Position numbers and translations under genes: made by a program. This document shows positions 9,508-32,650 of a stretch of 64,000 nt of DNA, piece after piece. The notes under the pieces were generated by a model that saw only the letters and a program-made list of their open reading frames with translations, was not told the DNA's origin and searched no databases. How positions within the stretch are numbered: position 1 is the stretch's first letter; each line of letters opens with the position of its first letter. Source of the stretch: Clostridia bacterium (GTDB taxonomy: Bacteria; Bacillota; Clostridia; Oscillospirales; CAG-272); NCBI GenBank assembly GCA_017399305.1, contig JAFQDK010000018.1, positions 2,363 to 66,362 on the forward strand, in the 5' to 3' direction.

Positions 9508-10857
9508 TTAAAAATAACTCCTTTTTCCTTTATTGCCTTTCAGCATTTTATTTCTGAATTTCTCCAAATCCTTGTCAAACTGCGTACGGTTGTCCACCTC
9601 TTTAGCAGGTGTTGTATATTGCAAACAGAAATAGCGAAGTGCATCGGGCAAATGCGTTATATCGTGTGGCTCTGTCATACAGTCAGTAGGCTTTTTTGCA
9701 TCTCTCTGTAACGCTGGCAAGCACTCTATAAGTTCTGTACAATTCGAAAATATCTTGAGCCTTGCATCATTCCCATGCAGTGTAAGCAATTCTTTTACCG
9801 CAAGCCAACCCGTTTCTCTGTTGCGATTTCCCTTTAACAGCGGCAAACCGTGTTCTCTGAAAATATCCGCTTTACTCTTCGCCGTTTCCTGTGACCTTGC
9901 CCATAAATCATCGGGCGCAACTGTGTATAATATCGTTTCATCGTCTGAAAGCTGCAATATATCCGCTGTTCCTTGTGAAATCGTTTTATCCGGCTTGGCA
10001 TATTCCCGATAAACATAATAGTTACCTCTTTCGTCGATAGCCAGCCAAAGACAAGCAAGGCAGTCAAGACCATAGTCAATAGTGCGATACTTTTTCCAAT
10101 TTTCCGGTATTTCAAATGGCTCTATTACATGAATGCTTCTGTCGAACTCCGAAAAATACTGCCCTGCAAGCATGTCCCAGTTGCCATCACGCCACGCCTG
10201 TCTCAGACCGTCTGACAGATTATCAAGCATTCTTATATACCCCGGGTCATTTTCAAGCAAGTTCTTGTTATCAAAAACTGTCGCAGCGATAAACTCATAA
10301 TCATCAGGGTTCTCACTTGCCCTGTATTTTTTGGAAACAAAAAGGCGTTTTACCCATTCATGCCCTACACCGCCGGGGTTGCAAGTCAAATACATTCGCT
10401 TGGGGAAGGCGTTCGCGCCTCGCAGACAAGCCGTAAGCGTTTCATACTGAAACTCTGTAAACTGTGTCGCCTCATCTATGAAAATAATGTCATATTCCTG
10501 CCCTTGATATTGCAGTACATCACTCTCTGATGCGCAATATCCAAGTTCAAGAATACTTCCATTGGGAAAATAAAAGCATTTTTCCTGTCTTACATACTTA
10601 GCAACGCCGTCAAGCAACGGTAAAAGTGCTCTTACGTGATTTCGTTCGAGGTCTTTATATGTACGGCGCAACAGAAGTATCTTTATCCCGTCATATCTGA
10701 TAGCCAGCAATGGGGCCTTTCGGTCAATAGCCCAAGACTTTCCACCGCCACGAGCTCCTCCGTATCCGACAAAACGCTTTCTTGATTTAAAAAAACGAGA
10801 TTGTTTAGGGTTTATCGTGGATATATCAATAGAAACTACCTTATCCGGCATAATCAT
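9508..10857 (-). CDS. terL: Terminase large subunit
   Basis: Walker A GGARGGGKS, Walker B-like YDIIFIDEA, C-terminal nuclease-like half; 449 aa. Confidence 0.9.
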   Translation of the reverse strand: MIMPDKVVSIDISTINPKQSRFFKSRKRFVGYGGARGGGKSWAIDRKAPLLAIRYDGIKILLLRRTYKDLERNHVRALLPLLDGVAKYVRQEKCFYFPNGSILELGYCASESDVLQYQGQEYDIIFIDEATQFTEFQYETLTACLRGANAFPKRMYLTCNPGGVGHEWVKRLFVSKKYRASENPDDYEFIAATVFDNKNLLENDPGYIRMLDNLSDGLRQAWRDGNWDMLAGQYFSEFDRSIHVIEPFEIPENWKKYRTIDYGLDCLACLWLAIDERGNYYVYREYAKPDKTISQGTADILQLSDDETILYTVAPDDLWARSQETAKSKADIFREHGLPLLKGNRNRETGWLAVKELLTLHGNDARLKIFSNCTELIECLPALQRDAKKPTDCMTEPHDITHLPDALRYFCLQYTTPAKEVDNRTQFDKDLEKFRNKMLKGNKGKRSYF

Positions 10858-16115: not shown

Positions 16116-17002
16116 TCATATATCTTCCTCGTCAAAAAATGTATATTGGTTAGCATCTTCCTGCAGCCACCATTGCATAACGCCTTTGCCATCTGTCCAC
16201 ATAGCGTGATTAGTAAGCCCTACCGCTTCTCTTGCAATGAGCATACAGTCAAATGCTTTTATATAAAGCTGCTTGTACTTCGGATATAGGGCAAACTCCC
16301 GCTTCATACTCGCCGTTCCGCCAAGCGGACAACCTATGCAACCTATACGCCTGAATCCGCATTGATACAAGGGATTGCTTTCGCACCCGTAATGATGCAG
16401 GAATTGCCACACATCGGATGTAGTCCAGTCTACAATGGGATTTACCATAAGCGATGTAGTGCGGTAGCAGGTCTCTACAACCTTGCGAGACTCTGCATTG
16501 TCTGTGTTGAGTACCACCCCCCCTTGGCGGTTAACATAAAATCCGCTCCGTTTTCCTCTGCAACCTTTTGAACAGTCTTGCTCTTACCAACAATCGTAAC
16601 GGGACCGTGATTGTTATTTCTATTTGCACTTTCTTCCCATCTCACACCAGTTATTTTTACTCGCCCTTTTCCGCCGTGTTCCTTAAGTTCCTCACAACAA
16701 TAACGCATTAAGCGCGTAGGCGGAATTTTCTTTTGTACTATCAAATCCCACATAGACTTTTCGGGATAATTGATATGCACATTCGGTATGCTCCTTATGT
16801 ATCGCACTGTTTCGGGAGCATCTACGGTGGTATGGTTGTTCTCAATATCGTGTTTTACCCCTGCAAGGCTTGCAAGTATGCGAATAGCATCGCTGTCCTT
16901 GCCGCCGCTATAACAGAGATAATACGGCTCATCGTGCGGCTCAAATGATTGCAGATATTTTATAGCCTGCTTTTCTTTGGATATGTTCATCCCCTCATAC
17001 AC
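16116..17002 (-). pseudogene. PAPS-reductase-family (phosphoadenosine phosphosulfate reductase-like) gene split by a frameshift in a G7 run
   Basis: ORFs 16475-17002 (PP-loop-like YSGGKDSD) and 16116-16517 (C-terminal CGFRRIGCIGCP) overlap at C7 run 16517-16523; adding one G fuses them (..AKGGVVLNTDNAES..). Confidence 0.7.
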
Positions 17003-17499: not shown

Positions 17500-17931
17500 T
17501 CATTCGGGCGCACTTTCCAAAGCCCTGTCCTCTTTTTCGCTTTCGGACAGAAGCCAATACTTAGACTTATCAACCTTGTTACGGCTCGTAACCTCCGCGT
17601 ATCGCTTTTGGATAGCCGCTGATGTTATCAAGTCCTTGCAGAGGAGCGCTTCATCGAATAGCCCTATCTCCCCACAATAGCGGATAATATCAACAACAAG
17701 GTTTTGACGATTCACCCATCTATACCCGATCATGCGAGTTATAACCTGTGCCATGCGTATAGCACTCATTTCGGCATAATATCCCTCTCGGTAAATAGTG
17801 CATAGACTTGCGACAAATACGGTAACGCCAAGAGGACCGTATTTGTCAACCAAATCCATAATTTTCAAATCGTCAAAAAAGTCTACATCAAAAGGAAAAT
17901 AGTCAAGCCCACGTTTAGGCGGTCTTGCCAT
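17500..17931 (-). CDS. DUF4373 (Lin1244/Lin1753-like) replication-organiser N-terminal domain protein
   Basis: MARPPKRGLDYFPFDVDFFDDLKI signature. Confidence 0.6.
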   Translation of the reverse strand: MARPPKRGLDYFPFDVDFFDDLKIMDLVDKYGPLGVTVFVASLCTIYREGYYAEMSAIRMAQVITRMIGYRWVNRQNLVVDIIRYCGEIGLFDEALLCKDLITSAAIQKRYAEVTSRNKVDKSKYWLLSESEKEDRALESAPE

Positions 17932-17943
17932 CTTTAATCCTCC

Positions 17944-18378
17944 TTAAAACGGTAAATCGTCTTCTTCACTTATCGATTCAAACTTCGGTGTAGCTTCAGT
18001 ATTTGAATATGCTTCGGGTACATATGCACTGCCGTTATTGTCGCCTGCATTATCGTCCTTGCCGCCGACAAATCCAACTTCATTTGCAATAACCTCGGTG
18101 ACGTATCTCTTCTCGCCCTTATTATCTGTGTAGGAGCGTGTCTGTATCTCTCCCTCAACAAGAATAGGCTTACCTTTCTTAAAATACTGTGCGACAAATT
18201 CTGCCGTCTTGCGCCATACAACGCAGTTAACAAAATCTGTTGTCTGCGTGCCGTCTTTTCCCCTGTACTTGCGGTTAATAGCAACTGTAAACGATGCTAC
18301 CGATACACCTTCGGGTGTCTGCTTAAGTTCAATATCTTTGGTAATGTTACCGATAAGAATTACTTTGTTAAAAGCCAT
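17944..18378 (-). CDS. ssb: Single-stranded DNA-binding protein
   Basis: MAFNKVILIGNITKD...OB fold, Gly-rich linker, acidic tail ending DDLPF. Confidence 0.9.
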   Translation of the reverse strand: MAFNKVILIGNITKDIELKQTPEGVSVASFTVAINRKYRGKDGTQTTDFVNCVVWRKTAEFVAQYFKKGKPILVEGEIQTRSYTDNKGEKRYVTEVIANEVGFVGGKDDNAGDNNGSAYVPEAYSNTEATPKFESISEEDDLPF

Positions 18379-18589
18379 TGTTATTCTCCAATCTGTATTT
18401 CTTATAATATGTTGTCTCGCCGTATCTATTGATGCCGCTTACGGTCTCTGATGTTATTCGGTGACCTTTTCTTTTAAGGTCGGTTATTCTTGAAGCAAGC
18501 CGCATAATTCCATATTCTTTTATGGCTTCAAGCGAAGTTATGCTACCATAATCTTCAAGATGTCGCATGATTCTTTCACATTGTGTCAT
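18368..18589 (-). CDS. Small winged-helix-like DNA-binding protein
   Basis: 73 aa, LASRITDLKRKGHRI motif. Confidence 0.4.
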   Translation of the reverse strand: MTQCERIMRHLEDYGSITSLEAIKEYGIMRLASRITDLKRKGHRITSETVSGINRYGETTYYKKYRLENNNGF

Positions 18590-18858
18590 AAATAACTCTT
18601 TCTGAATAGTTTTATAAACTCTTCTCTTGTATGCTCACGCTCAAATTTTCGCTGTGCAGCACGTTTTAATTTTTTGTTTGTGTTCTCGTTAAGGTGAACA
18701 GAATTAGGGCTGTACACATGGCAATACGGACACAATAAACAGGTCATGCCATACCGTTCACTTCGTTTGCGCAAGCTGCCTTCAAAAATGTGATGTACGT
18801 GCATAAAACCAACCTTGCCGCATATCACGCATTTTCCCTCAGCCATTACTTCTCCCAC
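18586..18858 (-). CDS. Zinc-finger/HNH-like (NinG/DUF968-like) protein, tentative
   Basis: CVICGK...HHIFEG...CLLCPYCH. Confidence 0.4.
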   Translation of the reverse strand: MGEVMAEGKCVICGKVGFMHVHHIFEGSLRKRSERYGMTCLLCPYCHVYSPNSVHLNENTNKKLKRAAQRKFEREHTREEFIKLFRKSYL

Positions 18859-19349
18859 CTTTCAAGCAGTAGTGCAAGTTCTGCCGGTGTTGCCGTTTCA
18901 ATGTCAAGAGCCTTGCAGTCTTGTACAACAAGGTCGATTAAGCGTGACATTTGCGCTGTATCATAAGTAGAAGAACCGCGATACGCAATCACCGTTGCAC
19001 AACCGGGCAACTTCGATTCTCCGCGTACTGCAACATTCCCAAGGTGCCCTTGCGACCAAGCTTTGCAAAAATCGTCTACGGCTTCTTCTTTCATACAGTA
19101 CACATCTCTAACGCCTACTTCTATTATGTAGTCACGGTATAATTGGGTAGTGCCGGGCAAGTATCTCTTTTCCGCCAACTTGCCGAGCAACACCCAAAAA
19201 TACGCGTTTGCATCAAGACTGCGCTTTTTACGAGATTTGTCTATCGTCATGACATACTCGGTGCTATCGTCAAGACTCTGGAAAAATTGCCCGAGCCTTG
19301 ACATAAGACCGAATGCATCAGATTTCTTAAAACGAAATTCTTGCTTCAT
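18846..19349 (-). CDS. Recombination-module protein (NinB/Orf-like, tentative)
   Basis: 167 aa next to Erf; RSLDANAYFWVLLGKLAEK motif. Confidence 0.35.
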   Translation of the reverse strand: MKQEFRFKKSDAFGLMSRLGQFFQSLDDSTEYVMTIDKSRKKRSLDANAYFWVLLGKLAEKRYLPGTTQLYRDYIIEVGVRDVYCMKEEAVDDFCKAWSQGHLGNVAVRGESKLPGCATVIAYRGSSTYDTAQMSRLIDLVVQDCKALDIETATPAELALLLERWEK

Positions 19350-20041
19350 ATCGCTTTAAGTACCTTGTCGAAATCAGTACATTTTATCTCAGCGGTTTTG
19401 TTTACGCCGAACATTTTGAGAAAATCGCCGTACTTAGCAATGTTATCACCTGCGACTTGTCCGTTTTTTGCTTCCCAAGCATCCATAATTTGTTTCTGTT
19501 GTGCAACCGTCAATGTATTCTTAACAGGCGGTGCTTCTACTTTTGGAACTTGAGTTTCTGCTTCTGCGGTATTCTTGCATTTATAATTGTTTTCTTCGCT
19601 TGCGGATTGGTCAGGGTCGTCCCCTGTTGAGATTTTATATGCTTTCATAAGCGCATACTTATCTGCATACGTCATTGCCTTACCGCTTCCTTTGTCTTGC
19701 GAATCAATACCCTCGGCAAAGGTTGTTGTTTCAATATATTCTTCAGGCTTTTCAACGTTTACAAAGCGATAAATTGTTTCTATTCTCGTCATGAAGATTG
19801 TTTTTTTGGTTGTTTGACCGTTGTATGTGCTTTCACTTTCAAGCATATTGCTTTCAAGTACCTTGCGACTTACAGGATAACTGTAAACACCATGCTCGGT
19901 TTCAAGGGGCTTTACCGCATCAAGAATATCCCTTTCCGACACGGCTTTGTATGAAGTTGTTTTTGTCTGTTGCACCGTCAAGTTCTTTGCAACCGTCTGT
20001 AATTCTGCGGTTATAGCCGCCATTTTTTCAAATATGTTCAT
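19346..20041 (-). CDS. erf: ERF-family single-strand annealing protein
   Basis: ORF 19346-20074; ATG at 20041 (MNIFEKMAAITAELQTV) has GAGGAG RBS; ERF-like N-terminus. Confidence 0.7.
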   Translation of the reverse strand: MNIFEKMAAITAELQTVAKNLTVQQTKTTSYKAVSERDILDAVKPLETEHGVYSYPVSRKVLESNMLESESTYNGQTTKKTIFMTRIETIYRFVNVEKPEEYIETTTFAEGIDSQDKGSGKAMTYADKYALMKAYKISTGDDPDQSASEENNYKCKNTAEAETQVPKVEAPPVKNTLTVAQQKQIMDAWEAKNGQVAGDNIAKYGDFLKMFGVNKTAEIKCTDFDKVLKAI

Positions 20042-20255
20042 CTTTATTCTCCTCAAACTCAAGCGGGCAATCATCCGCTATAATCTCAATCGAATACACA
20101 ACATTACCTGTCAATCTGCAAAAATGTCGGCTGTTGGCTTCGTCAGCCCTTAAATGCGGACACCATTTGCACTTAACATCATCTTCAGGAAAATGAACTG
20201 GGATGTGCGCTATTGCAGTTGTGTACCAAGTAATACCTTTATCAAATTTACCCAT
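20028..20255 (-). CDS. Small Cys-rich hypothetical protein
   Basis: 75-aa ORF. Confidence 0.35.
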   Translation of the reverse strand: MGKFDKGITWYTTAIAHIPVHFPEDDVKCKWCPHLRADEANSRHFCRLTGNVVYSIEIIADDCPLEFEENKDEHI

Positions 20256-20502
20256 GACACATAGCCTCTCTTATCCAAGCTTCTTTCCTGTCGAGCGCTT
20301 CAAGTAAATTTGCTCTATCTTCTTCAAGATGTTTTAAGTCTGCTAATAGCTTTTCCATCTTAGTTATATCTGCATCGCAGAAGTCGCACTCCGCTTCGTT
20401 TTGCACAAGTAGCCAGGTCTCTTTTATTTCCTGTTCTTTCTGCTCAAGTAAATATTCAATCGATGGTTCAGCCTCTTTGCGTTCAAAAAACGACATTTTC
20501 AT
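20248..20502 (-). CDS. Small acidic coiled-coil hypothetical protein
   Basis: 84-aa ORF. Confidence 0.35.
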   Translation of the reverse strand: MKMSFFERKEAEPSIEYLLEQKEQEIKETWLLVQNEAECDFCDADITKMEKLLADLKHLEEDRANLLEALDRKEAWIREAMCHG

Positions 20503-21085
20503 TCTCCTTTATGTTTAGATACCACTCTATAAAGTCTCGCGCATACTCAAATGACCATGCAACAATGCATCTGTGTCCCTGCGCTCTCAATTTACAGAGC
20601 CATTGATTTTGTTCTACCGTAGGCTTGCCGCCATCGGCTTTCATTTCTATGTATAGGCTGTGCCACTTTCCACGAGCCACAGGTAAGCAAAGGTCGGGCA
20701 CACCTCTTTTAAGTCCGAGAGCTTTAAGTATTGCGCCTGCAATTTTTGACCGCTTGCCCTCATTGGGGACATGATATATAAGGTCAAGCTCAGGGTATTT
20801 GCCTTTCATGGCCTCACACCAATCAATCAGGGCTCTTTGGTCAGCAGTTTCGTCAATACAGGATTTGTACCCCTCATTACCATATAAAGGCTTGCTTTTT
20901 TCTTTGGTTTGTGATATACTTGATTTGTATCTATCAGCGGGTGTTTTCTCACCCCTTGCCTCTGCGGTTGCCGCCGCAGGGGCTTTTTCTTTTTCTGTCC
21001 TCGCTTTTATCCGGAAGCCCACGCACATGCACCGCTCTCCCGGATCAAGCGTTGCTCCGCACTCAGGGCAAAAATAATTGTGCAA
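20483..21085 (-). CDS. VRR-NUC domain nuclease with N-terminal zinc ribbon
   Basis: CPECG..CMC then VPDLCLPVARGKWHSLYIEMK...QNQWLCKLRAQGH (PD-(D/E)xK VRR-NUC pattern). Confidence 0.75.
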   Translation of the reverse strand: MHNYFCPECGATLDPGERCMCVGFRIKARTEKEKAPAAATAEARGEKTPADRYKSSISQTKEKSKPLYGNEGYKSCIDETADQRALIDWCEAMKGKYPELDLIYHVPNEGKRSKIAGAILKALGLKRGVPDLCLPVARGKWHSLYIEMKADGGKPTVEQNQWLCKLRAQGHRCIVAWSFEYARDFIEWYLNIKENENVVF

Positions 21086-21089
21086 TTCA

Positions 21090-22118
21090 TCATCTCCTTA
21101 ATATTTGATTTATTTTCGTGTCCATAGCCATACCCAAGTTATAGCAATTACCGTGCGATATGTGATTTTTCCATGCTCCGTAAGAAGTATCAAACTTTTC
21201 TATAGGCAATTTACCATTCACAACAAGCTTTGCCATTCGCAAATACTTTTTCTGTGCATTGCGCTTGTTTTGGTTCTTCAACTTGCGTATTACCTTGCCG
21301 CCGCTTGCAACATAGGTATGAAAACCGAGATAATTAACACCGCTTTTGAATGGGAATATCTGTGTTTTGCCATTGAGTTCAAGACCAAGTGTTATAAGAA
21401 ACTCCGTTATCGCCTCAAGGCAATATTTTAAATATTCCTTGCTCGGATGCATTAGATAGAAATCGTCCATGTATCTGCCGTAATACTCAATACCGAGTTC
21501 ACGGACGATAAGCTTGTCCATGCCATCAAGATATAGCAAAGCAAATCCTTGATTTATCTGATTACCGAGCGGTATTCCTTTGCCCTCGGTACTGTCAATA
21601 AACAAATTACAGAGCCAGCATATATCAGGATCATATGAGAAGTAGTATTCAACAATATCCTTTAATTGCTCGTGCGATATATTGTAGAAAAACTTTAATA
21701 TATCACACTTTAAGATGTAGCCGTTGCAACCGTATTTTCTGTAAAAAGCTTTCATATGAAAACTCAAACGGTCAAGTGCAAATAATGTTCCTTTACCTTT
21801 TTGCCCTGCGGCATTGTCATATAGGAAAATTCTCTGCATCTTTGGAAGTAGCACATTATCACATAGACTATGCTGCACGACCTTATCTTTGAAAGATGTC
21901 GTCTGTATAATACGCTCTTTAGGCTCGTATACTTTGAACTCGTTATACTTTGATATTCTGTAAGTTCTGTCGCTAAGTTGCGAAATCAACCGATTAATTG
22001 CATCTAATGCCATAGCACCGAATTTAGCAGAACTCTTTTTATAGCCTTTACCGCTTTTTGCTTTGCGGTAAGCTCTATACATGTTTTCAAAGTCTATTAC
22101 TTTCTCAAAATCGGTCAT
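21090..22118 (-). CDS. DGR-type reverse transcriptase
   Basis: YMDD box (GRYMDDFYLMH), GIPLGNQINQ in place of DGR-typical [LI]GxxxSQ, N-terminus MTDFEKVIDFENMYRAYRKAKSGK; I start at ATG 22118 because the track ORF (to 22295) reads through the TR. Confidence 0.85.
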   Translation of the reverse strand: MTDFEKVIDFENMYRAYRKAKSGKGYKKSSAKFGAMALDAINRLISQLSDRTYRISKYNEFKVYEPKERIIQTTSFKDKVVQHSLCDNVLLPKMQRIFLYDNAAGQKGKGTLFALDRLSFHMKAFYRKYGCNGYILKCDILKFFYNISHEQLKDIVEYYFSYDPDICWLCNLFIDSTEGKGIPLGNQINQGFALLYLDGMDKLIVRELGIEYYGRYMDDFYLMHPSKEYLKYCLEAITEFLITLGLELNGKTQIFPFKSGVNYLGFHTYVASGGKVIRKLKNQNKRNAQKKYLRMAKLVVNGKLPIEKFDTSYGAWKNHISHGNCYNLGMAMDTKINQILRR

Positions 22119-22222
22119 GCAGTTAAGTCCTTTTTGTTTATCCTTTTCGGAAAGGTCGCGCATTCTTTTGATGTGGAGTTCTGATTTGGGCTTATGCCTA
22201 CTCTGTCTGACTATCCACCAGT

Positions 22223-22286
22223 ACGGACGCACGCCGTTGTTGTTGTTACTGCTCATGTTGTTGATGTTGCCATCCGGCGAAACGCA
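22223..22286 (-). repeat. DGR template repeat (TR), 64 nt
   Basis: Minus strand TGCGTTTCGCCG GAT GGC AAC ATC AAC AAC ATG AGC AGT AAC AAC AAC AAC GGCGTGCGTCCGT; 19 A, seven AAC codons, A-free flanks shared with both VRs. Confidence 0.8.
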
Positions 22287-22311: not shown

Positions 22312-22689
22312 TTATTTTTGTTCTTTTGTTCTCCATGCGATAGCCATATACTTCACATCAGAAACCAACTTAGACCAGTAAGCAGCAGATTTTGGTGCTA
22401 ACGATACAACTTCCATTGAAAGCTCAATGAAAAACAATAATTCATCGCAATATGTAATTGCCTTGGTTATCGTCTCGCACCGTAAATACTTATTTGTTGC
22501 ATTATTTATCCTGTTAGCTTCAAGCAATAATTCATCTATCTCGATGCTCTTGATTTGAATTTTGTTACACAGTGAAACTCGGTATTTTTTAGGGTATCTA
22601 TCGCTATTGGAAGTTAATTTAAATGAATGTACGGCAAGTTCTTTTGCTTTTATAACAACTTTTAATTCGTTGTCTTTTTCTTTAGTCAT
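22312..22689 (-). CDS. avd: Avd-like accessory variability determinant (four-helix-bundle protein)
   Basis: About 125 aa, basic, helical; ATG at 22689 overlaps target-1 stop (ATGACTAA); sits between target and TR as in canonical DGRs. Confidence 0.75.
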   Translation of the reverse strand: MTKEKDNELKVVIKAKELAVHSFKLTSNSDRYPKKYRVSLCNKIQIKSIEIDELLLEANRINNATNKYLRCETITKAITYCDELLFFIELSMEVVSLAPKSAAYWSKLVSDVKYMAIAWRTKEQK

Positions 22690-23209
22690 CACAAGATACA
22701 AAGATAGAAGATACAAAGTTCAAAAACGGACGCACGCCGCGGCAGCCGTAACTGACGTAGAAATCGTAGATGTCGCCGGACGGCGAAACGCAAAGGCACC
22801 AATTATCACCGAAATATTCATCTGTGCTATCAGGCGTAGCAAGCCACCAATATTTATCAAGCTTATGCTTTTCAAACAATGGGCGGTTTTTGCGGTAAAA
22901 ATCAAGTGTGGGTATGCTGATTCTTGATGTCATAACACCATACTTAGCCGAACCATCTAAAGAAAGCAAATCAGTTTCAAACTCAAGCACGTTTTCAGCA
23001 CCTACAATATTTTCAATCTCCGGCAATACTTCTTCCGTGAGACGCTTCATAATATCGCTACTTCTGAAATCGTTATTATCGCCGAAACGAGAATCGAAAA
23101 GTCTATCCTTGCATACTGCAATAACTCTGCCGTTTTCTTCGCCAAAATTGATAAATTCATATTTGCCAAGGTTGAAAGTTCCATCGGCATTTACTTTGAT
23201 TTTTTCCAT
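22682..23209 (-). CDS. DGR target protein 1 (C-terminal variable region, CLec/DUF6273-like WWLATP...GVRPF)
   Basis: 175 aa; C-terminus ..WWLATPDSTDEYFGDNWCLCVSPSGDIYDFYVSYGCRGVRPF carries VR1. Confidence 0.8.
   Translation of the reverse strand: MEKIKVNADGTFNLGKYEFINFGEENGRVIAVCKDRLFDSRFGDNNDFRSSDIMKRLTEEVLPEIENIVGAENVLEFETDLLSLDGSAKYGVMTSRISIPTLDFYRKNRPLFEKHKLDKYWWLATPDSTDEYFGDNWCLCVSPSGDIYDFYVSYGCRGVRPFLNFVSSIFVSCDD
22726..22792 (-). repeat. DGR variable repeat VR1, 67 nt
   Basis: Same A-free flanks as TR; 3' 28 nt differ from TR only at TR adenines (7 of 9 A changed, 0 of 19 non-A). Confidence 0.75.
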
Positions 23210-23223
23210 GTTACTTCTCCTTT

Positions 23224-23829
23224 TTAAGATACAAAGATATCAGAGTCTAAGATACAAAACGGACGCACGCCCGTGGAGTCGTTGAAACTGCCGTAGCAAT
23301 TGAGGACGTCGCCGGCCGGCGAAACGCATTTGACCGTTTCGGAATAGCCATGCTTAGGAGTGCTGAACGGCGTTGCAAGCCACCACCAATCCTTTACTTT
23401 GTACTTATCAAGGATTTCTACATACTTGCGGTAAAGATTGCATGTGAGCAACGATACACGCGCCATAGTTGAACCGTAGCACTTGAGTCCATCATCCGCG
23501 GTTAAGTCTACACTATGCATACAGATGTTTTCTTCTCCGACAATTTCAGCAATCTCATCGGCGAACTTATCAAGGCGATTCTTTACATCGCTTGACTTAT
23601 AATCGTTGCTTTTGCCGAATTCCATTATTTCAAGAAAATCGCGCATCAGCAAATATGTATTGCCAGATTGATGCTCAAGCACAATAAATTCATACTCGCC
23701 GATTTCGACTGTTTCGCCTACGGTTGCATCACCGAGTTTCACCTGCGGAACAAATTGGCTTTTGATACTGTCAATCTGTTCTTTTGTTAACGGTATTTTC
23801 TTTCCGTTGATACATAAATAGTTTTTCAT
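23224..23829 (-). CDS. DGR target protein 2 (paralog of target 1)
   Basis: 201 aa; ..WWWLATPFSTPKHGYSETVKCVSPAGDVLNCYGSFNDSTGVRPF carries VR2; alignable with target 1 over most of its length. Confidence 0.8.
   Translation of the reverse strand: MKNYLCINGKKIPLTKEQIDSIKSQFVPQVKLGDATVGETVEIGEYEFIVLEHQSGNTYLLMRDFLEIMEFGKSNDYKSSDVKNRLDKFADEIAEIVGEENICMHSVDLTADDGLKCYGSTMARVSLLTCNLYRKYVEILDKYKVKDWWWLATPFSTPKHGYSETVKCVSPAGDVLNCYGSFNDSTGVRPFCILDSDIFVS
23259..23328 (-). repeat. DGR variable repeat VR2, 70 nt
   Basis: Flanks TGCGTTTCGCCG and GGCGTGCGTCCGT identical to TR; centre two codons longer than TR. Confidence 0.7.
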
Positions 23830-23840
23830 GTTATATCTCC

Positions 23841-24059
23841 TTATAAATAATAGTTTCTATAGATATTCTTTCTATGTTGCTTATTCTTGTAATAAACCGT
23901 CTGTATATCAAACAGCCAGTTGCAAGCTCTACGCTTTATGGCACCTAACACACGGGGGATATTTTCCCACTCGTCTGCAATGGTCCCGATAATACATAAA
24001 ACCACCGCAAACAATGCGATAAAGCCTACGCCCCAAAGCCATGTTTCAAAGAATGTCAA
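23841..24059 (-). CDS. Small membrane protein
   Basis: 72 aa, one TM helix (WLWGVGFIALFAVVLCIIGTI). Confidence 0.4.
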   Translation of the reverse strand: MTFFETWLWGVGFIALFAVVLCIIGTIADEWENIPRVLGAIKRRACNWLFDIQTVYYKNKQHRKNIYRNYYL

Positions 24060-24473: not shown

Positions 24474-24848
24474 ATGAAAACTAAAATTAAAGTAACTCAG
24501 CGAAATGTGAATAAAGTTCTTGATTATCTAAGTACCTACCCTTATTCCAAAGGCAAAATGATGTTCGTTGATGAAAAATTCTATAGCGGGCTACGTTTGA
24601 GCAAAGTTAAAGTCAATCAAACACTTAATGCGTTGCAAGAATTAAATATTATTGAAATAACACCACCGGTTTATAATAAACCTGCTACTATTTACCTTGC
24701 CGCCGGAGCTTTTTCTTATCGATTACTCAATCGTCAAAGCTTAACTCGCTTTTTGATACCTACTATTATTTCTGCCATAGCTCTGCTTAAAGCATTTGAT
24801 AGAGAACTGCTATTATTAGCCGAATTGATAGTAGACCTGCTAAAATAA
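24474..24848 (+). CDS. Plus-strand insert gene in the early operon (wHTH-like N-terminus plus C-terminal hydrophobic segment)
   Basis: 124-aa ORF with GAAGGAAG RBS, opposite orientation to all neighbours. Confidence 0.4.
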   Translation: MKTKIKVTQRNVNKVLDYLSTYPYSKGKMMFVDEKFYSGLRLSKVKVNQTLNALQELNIIEITPPVYNKPATIYLAAGAFSYRLLNRQSLTRFLIPTIISAIALLKAFDRELLLLAELIVDLLK

Positions 24849-24924
24849 TCAACGGCACCACAAAATCAGAAACCGATGTTATTACAATTCGCTGTTCTGC
24901 AATTTCTTTCTTTTTTTGTCTCAT
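24787..24924 (-). CDS. Possible 45-aa membrane peptide coupled to cro
   Basis: ATG overlaps cro stop (TAATG); MRQKKKEIAEQRIVITSVSDFVVPLIILAGLLSIRLIIAVLYQML; overlaps 3' end of 24474-24848 antisense. Confidence 0.25.
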   Translation of the reverse strand: MRQKKKEIAEQRIVITSVSDFVVPLIILAGLLSIRLIIAVLYQML

Positions 24925-25124
24925 TACAACTCCTTTGTTATATTAAGAATTTCGCATATAGCATCTACTATAACAGAGTTCTCATATTTGCCCGTGAGCG
25001 TCTTGTGCATATACGAGGTGTCAAAATACAGCCCCGTCTTGGCTTTTATCTGCTCAATAAGCCATGCTTGGTTCTTGTCCATGTCGATAAGAGCCTTTTT
25101 TACTTTCTTGCCAAATTCAGACAA
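24924..25124 (-). CDS. cro: Cro-like small HTH regulator
   Basis: Track ORF 24924-25142 starts at a TTG without SD; internal TTG at 25124 is 8 nt after AAAGGAG; divergent partner of cI-like gene. Confidence 0.55.
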   Translation of the reverse strand: MSEFGKKVKKALIDMDKNQAWLIEQIKAKTGLYFDTSYMHKTLTGKYENSVIVDAICEILNITKEL

Positions 25125-25150
25125 AATATCTTCTCCTTTCAATATTTGTA

Positions 25151-25179
25151 TTGACTTTTACGCAAAAGTGTAATAAAAT
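25151..25179 (+). promoter_or_regulatory. Sigma-70-type promoter directed toward cI-like gene
   Basis: TTGACT (25151-25156) - 17 nt - TAAAAT (25174-25179). Confidence 0.5.
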
Positions 25180-25198
25180 GGTGTTGTCCAGACATCGC

Positions 25199-25278
25199 AC
25201 TATTACAGTTTTGTGTAACCCTATGGCTACATATTACTACTTATTTCTGTAATAGTCAAGCGAAAATATTACAGTTTT
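25199..25278. promoter_or_regulatory. Operator repeats of the lysis/lysogeny switch
   Basis: TATTACAGTTTT at 25201-25212 and 25267-25278; inverted copy CTGTAATAGT 25247-25256 (reverse complement of ACTATTACAG 25199-25208). Confidence 0.6.
25231..25259 (-). promoter_or_regulatory. Sigma-70-type promoter directed toward cro-like gene
   Basis: Minus strand TTGACT (25259-25254) - 17 nt - TAATAT (25236-25231); operator copy lies in spacer/-35. Confidence 0.5.
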
Positions 25279-25318
25279 CAGTATTTCAGCGTTTTAGACA
25301 ATTGTGGGGGTAAGTAAT

Positions 25319-25675
25319 ATGTCAAAGTTGTACAATAACATTTTGTCGTTATGCGAGAATAAAGGAATTACGGGTTATCGCATGTGCAAAGAAATCGGAA
25401 TACAGCCAAGCATTTTAACAGATTTGAAAATGGGAAGAAAAGAAGGACTTTCTTCAAAAAATGCGGACAAAATCGCTCGTTACTTTGGCGTGTCGGTTGG
25501 ATATCTACTGGGAACAGACTATAGCGAAGTTGACGAAACAAAAAAATCCCCGTCCGTATCGGACGAGGATATAAAATTCGCATTATTTGGCGGCGAAGAT
25601 GAAATCACAGACGAGATGTGGCAGGCCGTAAAAGAATATGCAGAATTTATTAAAGATAAGCACGGAAAGAAATAG
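25319..25675 (+). CDS. XRE-family cI/ImmR-like repressor
   Basis: HTH GITGYRMCKEIGIQPSILTDLKMGRK; ATG 25319 follows GGGGG RBS (track start 25304 is GTG). Confidence 0.75.
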   Translation: MSKLYNNILSLCENKGITGYRMCKEIGIQPSILTDLKMGRKEGLSSKNADKIARYFGVSVGYLLGTDYSEVDETKKSPSVSDEDIKFALFGGEDEITDEMWQAVKEYAEFIKDKHGKK

Positions 25676-25684
25676 GGTGTAATA

Positions 25685-26476
25685 ATGGATACTTACATTG
25701 CATATTTTGATGAATCCGGCGACGATGGAATTTCAACGGCATCAAGCTCTTATTTCGTTCTTACAAGCATGTATATGAGCGCCGAATCTTGGCAAAGCAA
25801 CTACAACAAAATCAAAGCGTTCCGTGCTTCCTTGAAAAAATCACACGGATTTCACGCTTCCGAAGAAATGCATACAAAGCATTTACTATCCAACAAAGAA
25901 CCGTACCGCAAATATGGATGGACAAACCAACAACGGCAAGATATTATTAAATATTTTACTCTTTGTTTAGCAGAGTTGGATGTCAAATTTATAAACACTA
26001 TTATCGACAAAACAAAAATTACAACCTCTGACTATCATGTTTTGGAAAACGCTTTGAAATATAATATTCAGCGAATCGAGAACGATAGTGCCGGAAAATG
26101 GAATTATATTATCATTACCGATCAGGGAAGAATTGCACCGATGCGTAAAACCGCTCGAGCAATCCGTGCATACAATCCTATTCAATCTAAATACTCGCTT
26201 GATTTTAAAAACGAGCCTATAAATAATTTGATTGAAGACATTCTTGAAAAAGATTCAAAGGAATCATATTTTGTGCAGATGTGTGATTTTGTATCATATA
26301 TAGTACATTTATACTATAGGACACAATACAAAAAACAACCTCTCCCAAATAGAGTGGGACAGGTTGTTGACGAAAAATTTATTGGGCGAGTCATGGCAAC
26401 ATTAAAGAACTCAGGAAAACTGAATACAAAAGCAAGCAGTAGAAGCACCTACGGGCTTGTCATATACCCGAGATAA
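25685..26476 (+). CDS. DUF3800-family protein
   Basis: N-terminus YIAYFDESGDDG is the DUF3800 signature; 263 aa; 9 nt after repressor stop. Confidence 0.6.
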   Translation: MDTYIAYFDESGDDGISTASSSYFVLTSMYMSAESWQSNYNKIKAFRASLKKSHGFHASEEMHTKHLLSNKEPYRKYGWTNQQRQDIIKYFTLCLAELDVKFINTIIDKTKITTSDYHVLENALKYNIQRIENDSAGKWNYIIITDQGRIAPMRKTARAIRAYNPIQSKYSLDFKNEPINNLIEDILEKDSKESYFVQMCDFVSYIVHLYYRTQYKKQPLPNRVGQVVDEKFIGRVMATLKNSGKLNTKASSRSTYGLVIYPR

Positions 26477-26628
26477 AAGAAAACACCACCTACGAGGCAT
26501 TCGCCCTTTCAGTGGTTCAATGTAATTATACACTATTATTTACGATTTGTCAACACCATTTCACGAAAAATCTTTCGTGTTTCTGTACGATTTATTGTAC
26601 ACCCTTTGCTGTAAAATAATATCCGGAG

Positions 26629-27045
26629 GTGAATCACATGAATGTATTGAAACTTTATGACATTGCAAAAAAGCACGACATCATGGTGAACACCCGAGAT
26701 ATTCCGCCGCCATCAATGGCAATAGAGGTATGCGGTATTAAAGGTATCGCGCTCCGAAAGGACCTCACAAAAGCAGAGGAACGGTCCTATCTCTCACACG
26801 AACTCGGACACCATATAAAAGGTGCACTCTACAGCAAAGAAACACCTTGTTTCACCCGAGGGCAATGCGAACATAAAGCGAACAAGTGGGCAATACATAA
26901 ACTTATTCCGTTTCGCTCACTCTATGCAGCATTTCGCAAAGGTTATGTCGAAGTCTGGCAACTTGCCGAATACTTCGATGTAACAGAAGATTTTATATTA
27001 AAAACAATAGAGATATACAAGCAGGAAGGCAAATTGCCGATATAG
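26629..27045 (+). CDS. immA: ImmA/IrrE-family zinc metalloprotease
   Basis: HEXXH motif SHELGHHIKG; about 138 aa; lysogeny module context. Confidence 0.75.
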   Translation: MNHMNVLKLYDIAKKHDIMVNTRDIPPPSMAIEVCGIKGIALRKDLTKAEERSYLSHELGHHIKGALYSKETPCFTRGQCEHKANKWAIHKLIPFRSLYAAFRKGYVEVWQLAEYFDVTEDFILKTIEIYKQEGKLPI

Positions 27046-27461: not shown

Positions 27462-28583
27462 ATGCCACGCAAAAAAGCCACAAAGCGAGCCGACGGCAGA
27501 TATGTTTCAACACTTGTAGTCGGAACTGATGCAAACGGCAAGCTTGAGCGCAAATACTTCTACTCAAACAAATCGCAGACAGATGCAAACAACAAGCGTG
27601 ATGCGTATAAGGCCGAGCAGACCGCAAAAGGGCTCCTCGGTACAGCTCCCGGAGAAGCAAAAAAGGTAAAGCTTGAAACATGGGCGAGAAAATGGCTTGA
27701 AACGAAATCGGGCAAGGTAAAAGAATCAACTTTCGATACATCATACCGCCGCCCAACAGAAAGGTATATCATACCCAAACTCGGTAACCGATACATCGCC
27801 GACATCAAACCTATAGAAATTGATGCCTTTTTCACTAAACTCGGCGAAAACTATTCGCAGACTGTACTGCAGAAAACAAAGATATGTCTTTCTGCCATAT
27901 ACGATAGTGCAATAGATAATAACATATGCTATAAAAACCCTTGCAAAAATGTTGAAATAAGTAGCAAAAAGAAAAAAGGCGATAAACGGACCTATACCGA
28001 AGAACAAGTCAAAGATATCCTTGCTTTTGCAGATACCGATATGTACGGCATATATATTCGTTTACTCCTCGAACTCGGTCTTCGCTGTTCTGAACTTTGC
28101 GGCCTTAAATGGTCCGATTTCGACCTTAACAAGCGAACCGTAAACATAGAGCGAGCCGCAACTGATAATAACGGGTTAACCGTTGTTGATGTACCAAAAA
28201 GTAAAACAAGCATTCGCAGGCTTCCCTTTTCAACGGCATTATTAAACGCACTAAAGCAAATCCCCGATATAAACACCGATAAATATATTGTAGAGTCAAC
28301 CAAGACACCTAATACCCCTGTAAACCCCAAAAATTTCGCTTCTAAGCGATATAAAACTTTTTGGAACAGATACCTTGAAACAATGTCCGAAAGCGAACAG
28401 AAGACATTCCCGCTGCTGTCACCGCATGAATTAAGACATACCTGCGGCACTCTTATGTATAACCGTTCCAAAAACATCTATGCTGTATCAAAATACCTTG
28501 GTCATGCAACAGTTGATATTACATCACGATTATATGTCCACAACGATATAGATACCCTAAGAGAAAGCCTCGGAATTGAGTAA
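27462..28583 (+). CDS. int: Tyrosine recombinase (phage integrase)
   Basis: GLRCSELCGLKW (Arg box), HELRHTCGT, LGHATVDITSRLYVH (catalytic Tyr region). Confidence 0.9.
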   Translation: MPRKKATKRADGRYVSTLVVGTDANGKLERKYFYSNKSQTDANNKRDAYKAEQTAKGLLGTAPGEAKKVKLETWARKWLETKSGKVKESTFDTSYRRPTERYIIPKLGNRYIADIKPIEIDAFFTKLGENYSQTVLQKTKICLSAIYDSAIDNNICYKNPCKNVEISSKKKKGDKRTYTEEQVKDILAFADTDMYGIYIRLLLELGLRCSELCGLKWSDFDLNKRTVNIERAATDNNGLTVVDVPKSKTSIRRLPFSTALLNALKQIPDINTDKYIVESTKTPNTPVNPKNFASKRYKTFWNRYLETMSESEQKTFPLLSPHELRHTCGTLMYNRSKNIYAVSKYLGHATVDITSRLYVHNDIDTLRESLGIE

Positions 28584-28897: not shown

Positions 28898-29695
28898 ATG
28901 AAAAAAATATACACCGCGATCTCAAATAATCGCTTTGTTTCTTTTATAATTCTCGCGCTGTTGCTTTGCGGCATATATTCTTGTATCATGCTGAACATAG
29001 ATGCCTCATTGTGGATTTTAATTGTCGGTAATATGCTGATTCTGCTTTTCGCATACGTATTTCCCTATTCATGCACAACAAAGCTGTTGCAGGCGGTTGT
29101 TGATGAACTCAACAATAACTGTGACCCATATCCATTGCTTGATGAAACTAGAAGACAACTGGAAAGAGTGAAGGAAGGGTCTGAACAGCAGTTGCTGATG
29201 ACAAATCAATGTGCGGCGCTGATCTCGATTGGTGAGTATCAAAAAGGAATTGACCTGTTGACCTCTATAAACATTGATAAATACAGTACAACCCCTGCCA
29301 TTTTAAAATTCATTTACTACAACAACCTTGCAAGCTGTTACTGGCATATTGACGATATCGAAAACGCTGTAACCCTGAACAAAAAGGCTATCGCAATATA
29401 TAATGACTTGCCCGACACAAAAGAAAAGCACTTTTTTACATATGCAGTCAAGGACTGCCAAGCATCTGTTCTTTTCTCTGAGGGCAAATATGATGAGGCA
29501 TTAAAACTGCTTGAAGAAGCGCCTATTGAAAATGCAAGCGCGCGGATTTCCAACACATACGCACGAGCCGAAATATACATGAAAAAAGGCGAAATTGAGA
29601 TTGCCAGAAACCTGCTGAATTATGTAATCGCAAACGGAAATAAGCTATACAGCGTTGTCAGGGCAAAAGAAATGCTTGAAAAACACCAAGGCTAA
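28898..29695 (+). CDS. Membrane-anchored TPR-like protein
   Basis: Two N-terminal TM helices then TPR-like helical repeats (..GEYQKGIDLL.., ..GKYDEALKLLEEA.., ..KGEIEIARNLL..). Confidence 0.5.
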   Translation: MKKIYTAISNNRFVSFIILALLLCGIYSCIMLNIDASLWILIVGNMLILLFAYVFPYSCTTKLLQAVVDELNNNCDPYPLLDETRRQLERVKEGSEQQLLMTNQCAALISIGEYQKGIDLLTSINIDKYSTTPAILKFIYYNNLASCYWHIDDIENAVTLNKKAIAIYNDLPDTKEKHFFTYAVKDCQASVLFSEGKYDEALKLLEEAPIENASARISNTYARAEIYMKKGEIEIARNLLNYVIANGNKLYSVVRAKEMLEKHQG

Positions 29696-32563: not shown

Positions 32564-32650
32564 TGGTGCCGGTAGTCGGGGTCGAACCGACACGGTATCG
32601 CTACCATCGGATTTTGAGTCCGACACGTCTGCCAATTCCATCATACCGGC
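32564..32650 (-). tRNA. tRNA-Leu (CAA)
   Basis: GCCGGTATGATGGAATTGGCAGACGTGTCGGACTCAAAATCCGATGGTAGCGATACCGTGTCGGTTCGACCCCGACTACCGGCACCA; type-II long variable arm, anticodon loop CTCAAAA. Confidence 0.9.

What the first reader, a model, noticed from the sequence alone, without database searches (positions are those of the whole stretch)
22682..23829. DGR targets are small, tandem, signal-peptide-less paralogs located outside the tail module
In the classic phage DGR (BPP-1 Mtd) the target is the receptor-binding tail fibre. Here the two targets are only 175 and 201 aa. They have hydrophilic N-termini (MEKIKVNADGTFNLGKYEF, MKNYLCINGKKIPLTKEQ) with no signal peptide, TM helix or virion-attachment domain that I can see. 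They sit between the VRR-NUC nuclease gene and the lysogeny switch, about 17 kb from the tail genes. The C-terminal WWLATP...CVSPxG...GVRPF scaffold looks like a CLec/DUF6273-type ligand-binding fold. A diversified, apparently cytoplasmic binding protein expressed from the early operon could be aimed at an intracellular ligand such as a host factor, a competing phage or a defence protein, rather than a cell-surface receptor.
Basis: inference. Interest (0 to 1): 0.65.

Follow-up and report, generated by a model that had tools for sequence, protein, structure and literature searches.

The report
Tandem small DGR-diversified phage lectin-like proteins
Two small neighbouring prophage genes encode lectin-like binding proteins whose tips are rewritten by a diversity-generating retroelement; they belong to a known protein family of unknown function, and here and in about 160 relatives they sit among the early replication genes rather than the tail genes.

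Summary
T1 (23224-23829, 201 aa) and T2 (22682-23209, 175 aa) are real paralogues (40% identity). They lie directly upstream of avd, a template repeat (TR) and an intact DGR reverse transcriptase. This is at the head of the early operon of a temperate phage with a P22-type portal. Neither has a signal peptide or membrane helix.

AlphaFold models (pLDDT 93 and 94) give a single DUF6273, C-type-lectin-like domain.

In 160 related loci the tandem pair, the adjacent RT and the early-region position are conserved across unrelated virion backbones. 97% of TR/VR mismatches fall on template adenines.

Small DUF6273-only DGR targets are already published (nd4/nd12 tgt2, Lelie/CP11, Toutatis). All were assumed to be receptor binders, with no experiment.

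The cytoplasmic-ligand idea is neither shown nor excluded. Lack of a signal peptide does not discriminate, because virion proteins lack one too. The conserved early position and portability favour a non-tail, free-standing protein.

In this copy the TR is one and two codons shorter than the two VRs, and the VRs are identical in at least seven assemblies. This element therefore looks static.

The parts
23224..23829 (-). T1: 201-aa DGR variable protein, a single DUF6273 / C-type-lectin-like domain with a conserved 30-residue N-terminal extension. A strong Shine-Dalgarno (AAGGAG) lies upstream.
   Evidence: ORF; sequence; phrog_9958 E=7e-35 and DUF6273 23.3 bits; 981 homologues; AF2 pLDDT 92.7; Foldseek hits to DUF6273 proteins.
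23257..23328 (-). VR1: 24 codons, CVSPAGDVLNCYGSFNDSTGVRPF.
   Evidence: Against the TR there are 12 mismatches at adenines, 4 at other bases and 6 nt of gaps.
22682..23209 (-). T2: 175-aa paralogue of T1 with the same fold, no N-terminal extension and a strong Shine-Dalgarno.
   Evidence: ORF; BLASTP to T1 E=2e-37; phrog_9958 E=3e-31; 1290 homologues; AF2 pLDDT 94.2; Foldseek.
22724..22792 (-). VR2: 23 codons, CVSPSGDIYDFYVSYGCRGVRPF.
   Evidence: Against the TR there are 13 mismatches at adenines, 5 at other bases and a 3-nt gap.
22312..22689 (-). avd: DGR accessory variability determinant, 125 aa. Its start codon overlaps the T2 stop by 8 nt.
   Evidence: phrog_3206 'Avd protein of DGR' E=1e-15; weak Pfam bAvd hit; sequence.
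22221..22286 (-). TR: template repeat of 22 codons (CVSPDGNINNMSSNNNNGVRPY) with 20 adenines and 7 AAY codons. It is shorter than both VRs.
21090..22118 (-). DGR reverse transcriptase, 342 aa, with the YMDD and LGNQINQ motifs present.
   Evidence: RVT_1 E=7e-14; phrog_1423 E=1e-102; translation; 28-50% identity to the RTs of nd12, nd4, Brigit, Toutatis and BPP-1 Brt.
24924..25675 (.). Lysogeny switch: cro-like repressor (24924-25142, minus strand) and cI-like repressor (25304-25675, plus strand). It marks the start of the early operon that contains T1 and T2.
   Evidence: phrog_1468; phrog_8 and phrog_4.
17500..21085 (-). Early recombination and replication genes directly downstream of the DGR: VRR-NUC, Erf, NinB/Orf, SSB and a replication initiator.
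   Evidence: ORFs.

Best explanation
Shown:
- T1 and T2 are the two variable proteins of one DGR cassette (T1-T2-avd-TR-RT).
- Each is a free-standing DUF6273, C-type-lectin-like domain.
- The last ~20 residues before the C-terminal strand are templated by the TR. Its AAY codons are rewritten by adenine-specific reverse transcription.
- The cassette, nearly always with both paralogues in tandem, is a portable module. It sits inside the early recombination/replication operon of temperate phages of Oscillospiraceae-type Clostridia, whatever their virion type.

Inferred:
- The pair works together. Natural single-chain fusions of two such domains exist.
- The pair is a soluble binding module made early in the lytic cycle. 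It is not an integral tail fibre.
- My preferred reading is that it acts free of the virion, on a variable partner inside the infected cell such as a host or rival-element protein. Only an intracellular early protein or a virion-bound one links the variant gene to its own benefit. The small target keeps its early position even where the RT cassette lies by the tail genes, and the module moves between unrelated virions. Both argue against a specific virion dock.

For this copy:
- The TR has lost register with both VRs.
- The VRs are invariant across assemblies, so diversification appears stalled.
For: Cassette and paralogy.

Fold: pLDDT 92.7 and 94.2; only significant PDB hit is 9qa6, which carries a DUF6273 domain; weak C-type-lectin hits; 21 BFVD hits.

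Family-wide DGR signature: 156 of 174 VRs have the same length as their TR, with 1599 mismatches at TR adenines against 51 elsewhere. VR entropy is 2.76 bits against 1.2 for the rest of the protein.

Conserved synteny in 160 loci:
- tandem pair in 126, three copies in 6;
- RT within 2.5 kb downstream in 117 of 134;
- integrase upstream on the opposite strand in 45 of 51;
- SSB flanking on the same strand;
- TerL 2.8-9 kb downstream in 33 of 37.

The window's own early genes.

Portability: at least 7 TerL and 4 portal clusters below 30% identity.

The small target stays early while the RT is by the tail: Brigit gp06, where 7 of 9 mismatches fall on TR adenines and the TR is about 41 kb away; Toutatis gp24 and Lelie orf58 (bioRxiv 10.1101/2024.10.15.618418; PMC11792537).

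Two-domain fusions: P0244, P0260, P0262, P0358, P0335.

Stalled copy.
Against: - There is no direct evidence of location or ligand.
- Where the location of a DUF6273 domain is known or inferred, it is extracellular or virion-linked: the sortase-anchored IgA protease (PMC12402451), tentaclins with Ig-like anchors (PMC10743442), and a target fused to a tail-fibre-like domain in phage Pioen (PMC11792537).
- In two-target DGRs one TR writes both the presumed virion protein and the small protein.
- T1's conserved N-terminal extension could be a dock.
- Small portable capsid decoration proteins exist.
- Early-region placement may only reflect where accessory modules insert.
- T1 and T2 gave no meaningful hit to defence-system models. 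PADLOC holds no anti-defence models, so this is weak.
- The promoter scan was uninformative.
Confidence: 0.4

Rival explanations
1. T1 and T2 are virion-associated accessory adhesins or receptor-binding proteins, working like Mtd or a decoration protein. They would be made in the cytoplasm, dock on capsid or tail (T1 through its N-terminal extension, T2 through T1), and bind a variable host-surface or gut glycan or protein.
For: - This is the published assumption for the same family (PMC10743442; PMC11792537; bioRxiv 10.1101/2024.10.15.618418).
- DUF6273 occurs in tentaclins, in tail-fibre fusions and in secreted bacterial surface proteins.
- There is a weak C-terminal match to phrog_10993 'Hoc-like head decoration'.
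- One TR is shared with the Hoc-like target in Brigit.
- T1's N-terminal extension is conserved.
Against: - No recognisable anchoring domain.
- T2 lacks even the extension.
- The module sits on at least 7 unrelated terminase lineages and 4 portal lineages, so a specific docking site is hard to picture.
- The early-operon position is conserved and independent of where the RT lies.
- No VR lies in the tail region of this phage.
Confidence: 0.35
2. T1 and T2 are free lectins released at lysis. They would act outside the cell without being part of the virion, for example by masking receptors on debris or neighbouring cells, or by binding mucus.
For: They are soluble single-domain proteins with strong ribosome-binding sites and no anchor. 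The fold is lectin-like.
Against: A released protein is a shared good. A variant VR would not preferentially benefit the genome that encodes it, so sustained DGR diversification is hard to explain. There is no supporting observation.
Confidence: 0.1
3. In this prophage the cassette is a decaying relic. T1 and T2 keep the fold but are no longer diversified and may no longer matter to the phage.
For: - TR is 22 codons against VR2 23 and VR1 24, with 4-5 non-adenine mismatches per VR.
- VR1, VR2 and TR are identical in 7 metagenome contigs; the exact T1 protein was seen on 15 contigs.
- One assembly has T2 split by a frameshift.
Against: - All five genes are intact, with the RT motifs present.
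- Mismatches are still strongly adenine-biased (p about 3e-5).
- A roughly 90-95% identical sister lineage has the same VR1 but a different VR2. That the two proteins share a contig is inferred from matching contig length.
- About 10% of related VRs also differ from their TR by a codon or two.
- This rival concerns activity, not function.
Confidence: 0.3

Closest known systems
nd4_tgt2 / nd12_tgt2, the second targets of the 'tentaclin' DGR cassettes (Baykov et al. 2023, PMC10743442)
   Same: Small DUF6273-only, C-type-lectin-like proteins with the VR at the C-terminus forming a surface beta-hairpin. They are detectable homologues (tblastn about 32-34% identity). The RTs are 41-50% identical.
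   Different: There the small target is paired with a large tentaclin (DUF6273 plus Ig-like domains). Here there are two small paralogues in tandem and no tentaclin. The published ones are 234 and 294 aa with extra helices. Their function was assumed to be receptor binding and was not tested.
Small DGR targets of Faecalibacterium phages: Lelie orf58 and CP11 (PMC11792537), FP_Toutatis gp24 (bioRxiv 10.1101/2024.10.15.618418), FP_Brigit gp06
   Same: Same family (28-29% identity). They lie in the early region near the lysogeny switch or among the replication genes and are DGR-targeted (for Brigit).
   Different: In those phages the RT, TR and main Hoc-like target sit beside the tail genes, 17-41 kb from the small target. 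Here the whole cassette is in the early operon and both targets are small.
Mtd of Bordetella phage BPP-1
   Same: A DGR variable protein with a C-terminal VR on a C-type-lectin-type fold. The cassette order target-avd-TR-RT is the same, and the RT is 28.5% identical.
   Different: Mtd is 381 aa and has a beta-prism and a beta-sandwich that attach it to the tail fibre (as summarised in PMC10743442). Its gene is said to lie with the tail genes (my own knowledge). No sequence or Foldseek match to Mtd was found here.
Quimbyviridae DGR target nested in a defence island (Benler et al. 2021, PMC8008677)
   Same: A phage DGR target with a C-type-lectin domain outside the structural module, proposed to be non-structural.
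   Different: Different phages (Bacteroides hosts) and a different genomic setting (a defence island, not the early operon). Homology to T1/T2 was not tested.
Cytoplasmic DGR targets of bacteria (cyanobacterial signalling proteins, PMC7517822; STAND-linked sensors, from my own knowledge)
   Same: They show that DGR-diversified lectin-type domains can work inside cells.
   Different: Those are large multidomain cellular proteins, not small phage early proteins.

Membership tests
Diversity-generating retroelement (DGR) cassette | RT of the DGR type next to a template repeat, with an Avd-type accessory gene | tested here: met
   RVT_1 E=7e-14 and phrog_1423 E=1e-102; Avd phrog_3206 E=1e-15. YMDD and LGNQINQ motifs are in the translation. 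The TR lies between avd and the RT.
Diversity-generating retroelement (DGR) cassette | TR and VR differ only, or almost only, at TR adenines | tested here: inconclusive
   Window: 13 adenine and 5 other mismatches for VR2; 12 and 4 for VR1. The adenine bias is significant (p about 3e-5) but not clean. Family: 1599 adenine against 51 other mismatches.
Diversity-generating retroelement (DGR) cassette | TR and VR of equal length, in register | tested here: not met
   Core lengths are TR 60 nt, VR2 63 nt and VR1 66 nt. In relatives, 156 of 174 VRs equal their TR; close relative L179 is 24/24/24 codons.
Diversity-generating retroelement (DGR) cassette | Ongoing diversification (VR polymorphism within a lineage) | tested here: not met
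   VR1, VR2 and TR are identical in 7 contigs from different samples. Read-level data were not available.
Pfam DUF6273 (PF19789) | Score above the gathering threshold | tested here: inconclusive
   T1 scores 23.3 bits against a cut-off of 23.5; T2 has no hit. Many orthologues carry the precomputed PF19789 hit. The fold matches DUF6273 proteins.
PHROG 9958 (phage protein family of unknown function) | Full-length profile match | tested here: met
   T1 E=7e-35 (residues 31-201); T2 E=3e-31 (residues 10-174).
C-type-lectin-fold DGR variable proteins | C-type-lectin-type fold with the VR on an exposed C-terminal element | tested here: inconclusive
Phage tail fibre / receptor-binding protein (Mtd-like) | Virion-attachment domain and location in the tail module | tested here: not met
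   Single domain only. The genes sit in the early operon. No match to Mtd.
Phage tail fibre / receptor-binding protein (Mtd-like) | Presence in the virion; role in adsorption | not testable with these tools
   No proteomic or genetic data were found for any small DUF6273 target.
Secreted or membrane protein | Signal peptide, lipobox or TM helix | tested here: not met
   Hydropathy maxima are 0.58 and 0.89. Only 2 of 392 family members have an N-terminal TM-like stretch, apparently from a fused upstream ORF. No dedicated predictor was available.

The most novel reading that the evidence does not exclude
Temperate phages of gut Clostridia carry a portable early-gene module. In it a DGR continuously rewrites a pair of free cytoplasmic lectin-like binders. 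These would act as an adaptive, antibody-like repertoire against variable intracellular partners, such as host defence proteins or competing mobile elements. This would be the phage-side counterpart of the DGR-diversified sensors of bacteria.
Probability: 0.25. Interest if true: 0.85.

Novelty: new variant of a known kind. Interest (0 to 1): 0.45.

Why it matters
Phage DGRs are usually read as tropism-switching devices acting on tail fibres.

Here a large family carries a different arrangement. Each paralogue has roughly 1000-1300 homologues at E<=1e-3 among proteins clustered at 90% identity. The profile finds 1485 hits among representatives clustered at 50%. The family places two anchor-less variable proteins among early genes, on unrelated virion types.

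If these proteins are virion adhesins, they define a portable docking principle.

If they act inside the cell, DGRs would also serve phage counter-defence or host takeover. That would change how DGR targets in viromes are annotated.

Either way the module is a compact natural two-binder diversification system, and it is experimentally reachable through cultured Faecalibacterium phages that carry homologues.

Tried and rejected
1. The 72-aa membrane protein just upstream of T1 (23841-24059) as a conserved partner: rejected. Only 14 of 130 distinct upstream ORFs in related loci are TM-like, and the upstream genes vary (methylases, ParB, HNH and others).
2. Domain fusions as functional clues: N-terminal extensions of longer family members gave no informative Pfam or PHROG match.
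3. Defence-system models (PADLOC): nothing for T1 or T2 beyond a Csn2 match at E=0.009 (13.9 bits, no aligned stretch), taken as chance. The RT hits only generic RT models.
4. Promoter and terminator scan of 20-26 kb: counts no higher than in shuffled sequence. No terminator-like site lies between the cro-like gene and T1 except one (24002-24022) inside the 72-aa ORF.
5. A remote third VR in the window or in the 5 kb of tail region beyond its left end: none.
6. Profile search of PDB sequences: only a marginal hit to the IgA protease DUF6273 region and a chance hit.
7. A first gapped local TR/VR alignment over-extended into the flanks and was discarded in favour of anchor-based cores.
8. Look-up of the 306-aa ORF at 1060-1980 failed, probably because of the start-codon choice. 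The capsid gene was used instead.
9. Literature search for virion proteomics of any small DUF6273 target: none found.
Full report
**What is there.**
- Each is preceded by an AAGGAG ribosome-binding site.
- They are paralogues: 40% identity over 163 residues, E=2e-37.
- Immediately downstream on the same strand come avd (22312-22689), a 66-nt template repeat (22221-22286) and a 342-aa reverse transcriptase (21090-22118). The avd ATG overlaps the T2 stop codon. The RT keeps YMDD and an LGNQINQ motif.
- The TR-like sequence ending in GGCGTGCGTCCGT occurs three times in the window: in the TR and at the 3' ends of T1 and T2.
- This is a target-target-avd-TR-RT DGR cassette.

**Where it sits.**
- Upstream on the same strand are a cro-like repressor (24924-25142) and two small ORFs.
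- Divergent from them are a cI-like repressor, a DUF3800 protein, an M78 peptidase and a tyrosine integrase.
- Downstream of the RT are VRR-NUC, an Erf annealing protein, NinB/Orf, SSB and a replication initiator. Further on come an HNH endonuclease, TerL (9508-10857), a P22-type portal (7004-9004) and the major capsid protein (4848-6020).
- The genes beyond the capsid gene match no family and continue past the window's left end. They hold no further VR.
- T1 and T2 therefore head the early recombination/replication operon, about 17-18 kb from the capsid and presumed tail genes.

**What the proteins are.**
- T1 narrowly misses the Pfam DUF6273 threshold (23.3 against 23.5 bits) and T2 has no Pfam hit. 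Both match PHROG 9958 (unknown function) end to end.
- AlphaFold2 with family alignments gives confident, similar single-domain models (pLDDT 92.7 and 94.2).
- The only significant PDB match for either is 9qa6, the Thomasclavelia ramosa IgA protease. Its N-terminal domain is DUF6273 in a secreted, sortase-anchored protein.
- C-type lectins appear only as weak hits, and Mtd and TvpA do not appear.
- Against predicted viral structures there are 21 hits at E<1e-3. Those that carry a name are mostly 'DUF6273 domain-containing' phage proteins, from 163 to 1436 residues.
- Neither protein has a hydrophobic N-terminus or TM segment.
- T1 differs from T2 by a 30-residue N-terminal extension (a beta-hairpin plus a helix) that is well conserved among T1 orthologues.

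**The family.**
- T1-type (~201 aa) and T2-type (~175-181 aa) proteins form two orthologous groups with 981 and 1290 hits. They repeatedly occur on the same contigs.
- A profile search of 1.8 billion cluster representatives finds 1485 members. Most of the 150 listed are 170-270 aa.
- I surveyed 160 related loci: 80 IMG/VR contigs and 80 genome contigs. The genome contigs are Oscillospiraceae, Acutalibacteraceae, Faecousia and other Clostridia MAGs; those whose record title names a sample source are from goat, sheep, yak, cattle and buffalo gut. Results:
  - tandem pair in 126 loci, three copies in 6;
  - RT within 2.5 kb downstream on the same strand in 117 of 134 loci with enough sequence;
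  - integrase upstream on the opposite strand in 45 of 51;
  - SSB flanking on the same strand;
  - TerL 2.8-9 kb downstream on the same strand in 33 of 37.
- The neighbouring terminases fall into at least 7 clusters, and the portals into 4, at below 30% identity. The module is therefore portable between unrelated virion types but keeps its early-region position.
- Single polypeptides with two such domains exist (P0244, P0260, P0262, P0358, P0335). This suggests the two paralogues act together.

**DGR signature.**
- With anchor-defined cores, 156 of 174 VRs from 93 distinct related loci have the same length as their TR. They differ from it at 1599 adenine positions against 51 others.
- VR columns are the most variable in the family: 2.76 bits against 1.2.
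- The window's copy is atypical. The TR has 22 codons, VR2 has 23 and VR1 has 24.
- Codon-aware alignment gives 13 adenine and 5 other mismatches for VR2, and 12 and 4 for VR1. This is still adenine-biased (p about 3e-5) but not clean.
- A close relative (L179) has 24/24/24 codons with a canonical pattern. Another (L177) has a 23-codon TR against a 24-codon VR1. The TR therefore seems to have contracted in this sublineage.
- VR1, VR2 and TR are identical in seven contigs from different samples. The exact T1 protein is on 15 contigs.
- A ~90-95% identical sister lineage keeps the same VR1 but has a different VR2.
- I conclude that this element was shaped by DGR mutagenesis but is now out of register and apparently static. 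Read-level data could overturn this.

**What is already known.** Small DUF6273-only DGR targets are in the literature.
- nd4_tgt2 and nd12_tgt2 are paired with 'tentaclins'. They were modelled as C-type-lectin-like, with the VR as a surface beta-hairpin (PMC10743442).
- The small targets of Faecalibacterium phages Lelie and CP11 (PMC11792537).
- FP_Toutatis gp24 is a core gene 17.5 kb from the TR (bioRxiv 10.1101/2024.10.15.618418).
- All are homologues of T1 and T2. All were guessed to be receptor binders. I found no experiment on any of them.
- In Toutatis, Lelie and Brigit the small gene lies in the early region, while the RT and the Hoc-like target lie beside the tail genes.
- For Brigit, gp06 lies two genes downstream of the cro-side HTH gene of the lysogeny switch. 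It carries an 80-nt match to the TR 41 kb away, with 7 of 9 mismatches at adenines. The original description lists only the Hoc-like target (PMC5883640).
- A non-structural phage DGR target was proposed earlier for Quimbyviridae (PMC8008677).

**Interpretation.**
Virion proteins also lack signal peptides, so that feature cannot separate a cytoplasmic role from a structural one.
- What does discriminate is genomic behaviour. The small target keeps an early-operon position on many unrelated phage backbones, independently of where the RT lies. It also has no recognisable anchor.
- A released, free lectin would be a shared good and would not reward the genome that encodes a useful variant. The realistic alternatives are therefore an intracellular early protein or a virion-bound protein.
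- I lean slightly to the former (about 0.4 against 0.35). The reasons are the early position kept independently of the RT and the portability across virion types.
- Every DUF6273 domain of known or inferred location is extracellular or virion-linked, so the rival remains strong.
- Virion proteomics and a timed transcriptome in a cultured Faecalibacterium phage would settle it.

**Verdict.**
- The proteins are a new architectural variant of a known kind of DGR target: two small paralogues in tandem, with the whole cassette in the early operon.
- The cytoplasmic-ligand hypothesis is open.
- This copy is probably not diversifying at present.

Noticed in passing
L002:3948-4559 (FP_Brigit gp06) and L182:4683-4762 (TR next to the Brigit RT): FP_Brigit gp06 is a small DUF6273 protein two genes downstream of the cro-side HTH gene of the lysogeny switch. 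It carries an 80-nt match to the TR about 41 kb away, with 7 of 9 mismatches at TR adenines. It looks like a second, remote DGR target. The original description of Brigit names only the Hoc-like target.
   Followed up: partly
window 22221-22286 vs 22724-22792 and 23257-23328; L177, L179: The TR seems to shrink by whole codons within this sublineage: 24 codons in L179, 23 in L177 and 22 in the window. VR1 stays at 24. About 10% of related VRs also differ from their TR by one or two codons. Slippage in the AAC runs is a possible cause and was not tested.
   Followed up: partly
P0244, P0260, P0262, P0358, P0335: These are single polypeptides of 355-411 aa containing two complete DUF6273 domains, each with its own VR-like C-terminus. 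One has a coiled-coil-like linker. They look like natural fusions of the tandem pair. Their DNA was not inspected to rule out gene-calling artefacts.
   Followed up: partly
window 16116-17002 (-): A PAPS-reductase-like gene (phrog_424) is split into two overlapping ORFs (16475-17002 and 16116-16517). This suggests a frameshift or a programmed shift.
   Followed up: no
window 24474-24848 (+): A 124-aa ORF on the opposite strand interrupts the minus-strand early operon between the cro-like gene and the genes leading to T1. It matches no family. Its C-terminal part reads as hydrophobic by eye; this was not measured. It implies that T1 and T2 may have a promoter of their own.
   Followed up: no
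window 23841-24059 (-); P0096, P0256: A 72-aa single-pass membrane protein lies directly upstream of T1. Two family members carry an N-terminal TM segment fused in frame to a T1-like protein. The neighbour is not conserved across the family (14 of 130).
   Followed up: yes
L008:3621-4147: In one metagenome assembly of the same prophage, T2 is split into 83-aa and 102-aa ORFs. This is either a frameshift or an assembly error.
   Followed up: no
window 25685-27045 (+): The lysogeny module carries a DUF3800 protein (263 aa) and an M78 (IrrE-type) peptidase next to the cI-like repressor. The DUF3800 gene gave no hit to PADLOC defence models.
   Followed up: no
window 28600-64000: The prophage appears to end just after the integrase (27462-28583). 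A TPR protein (28898-29695) and a tRNA-Leu(CAA) at 32564-32650 follow. The attachment site and the host part of the window were not studied.
   Followed up: no
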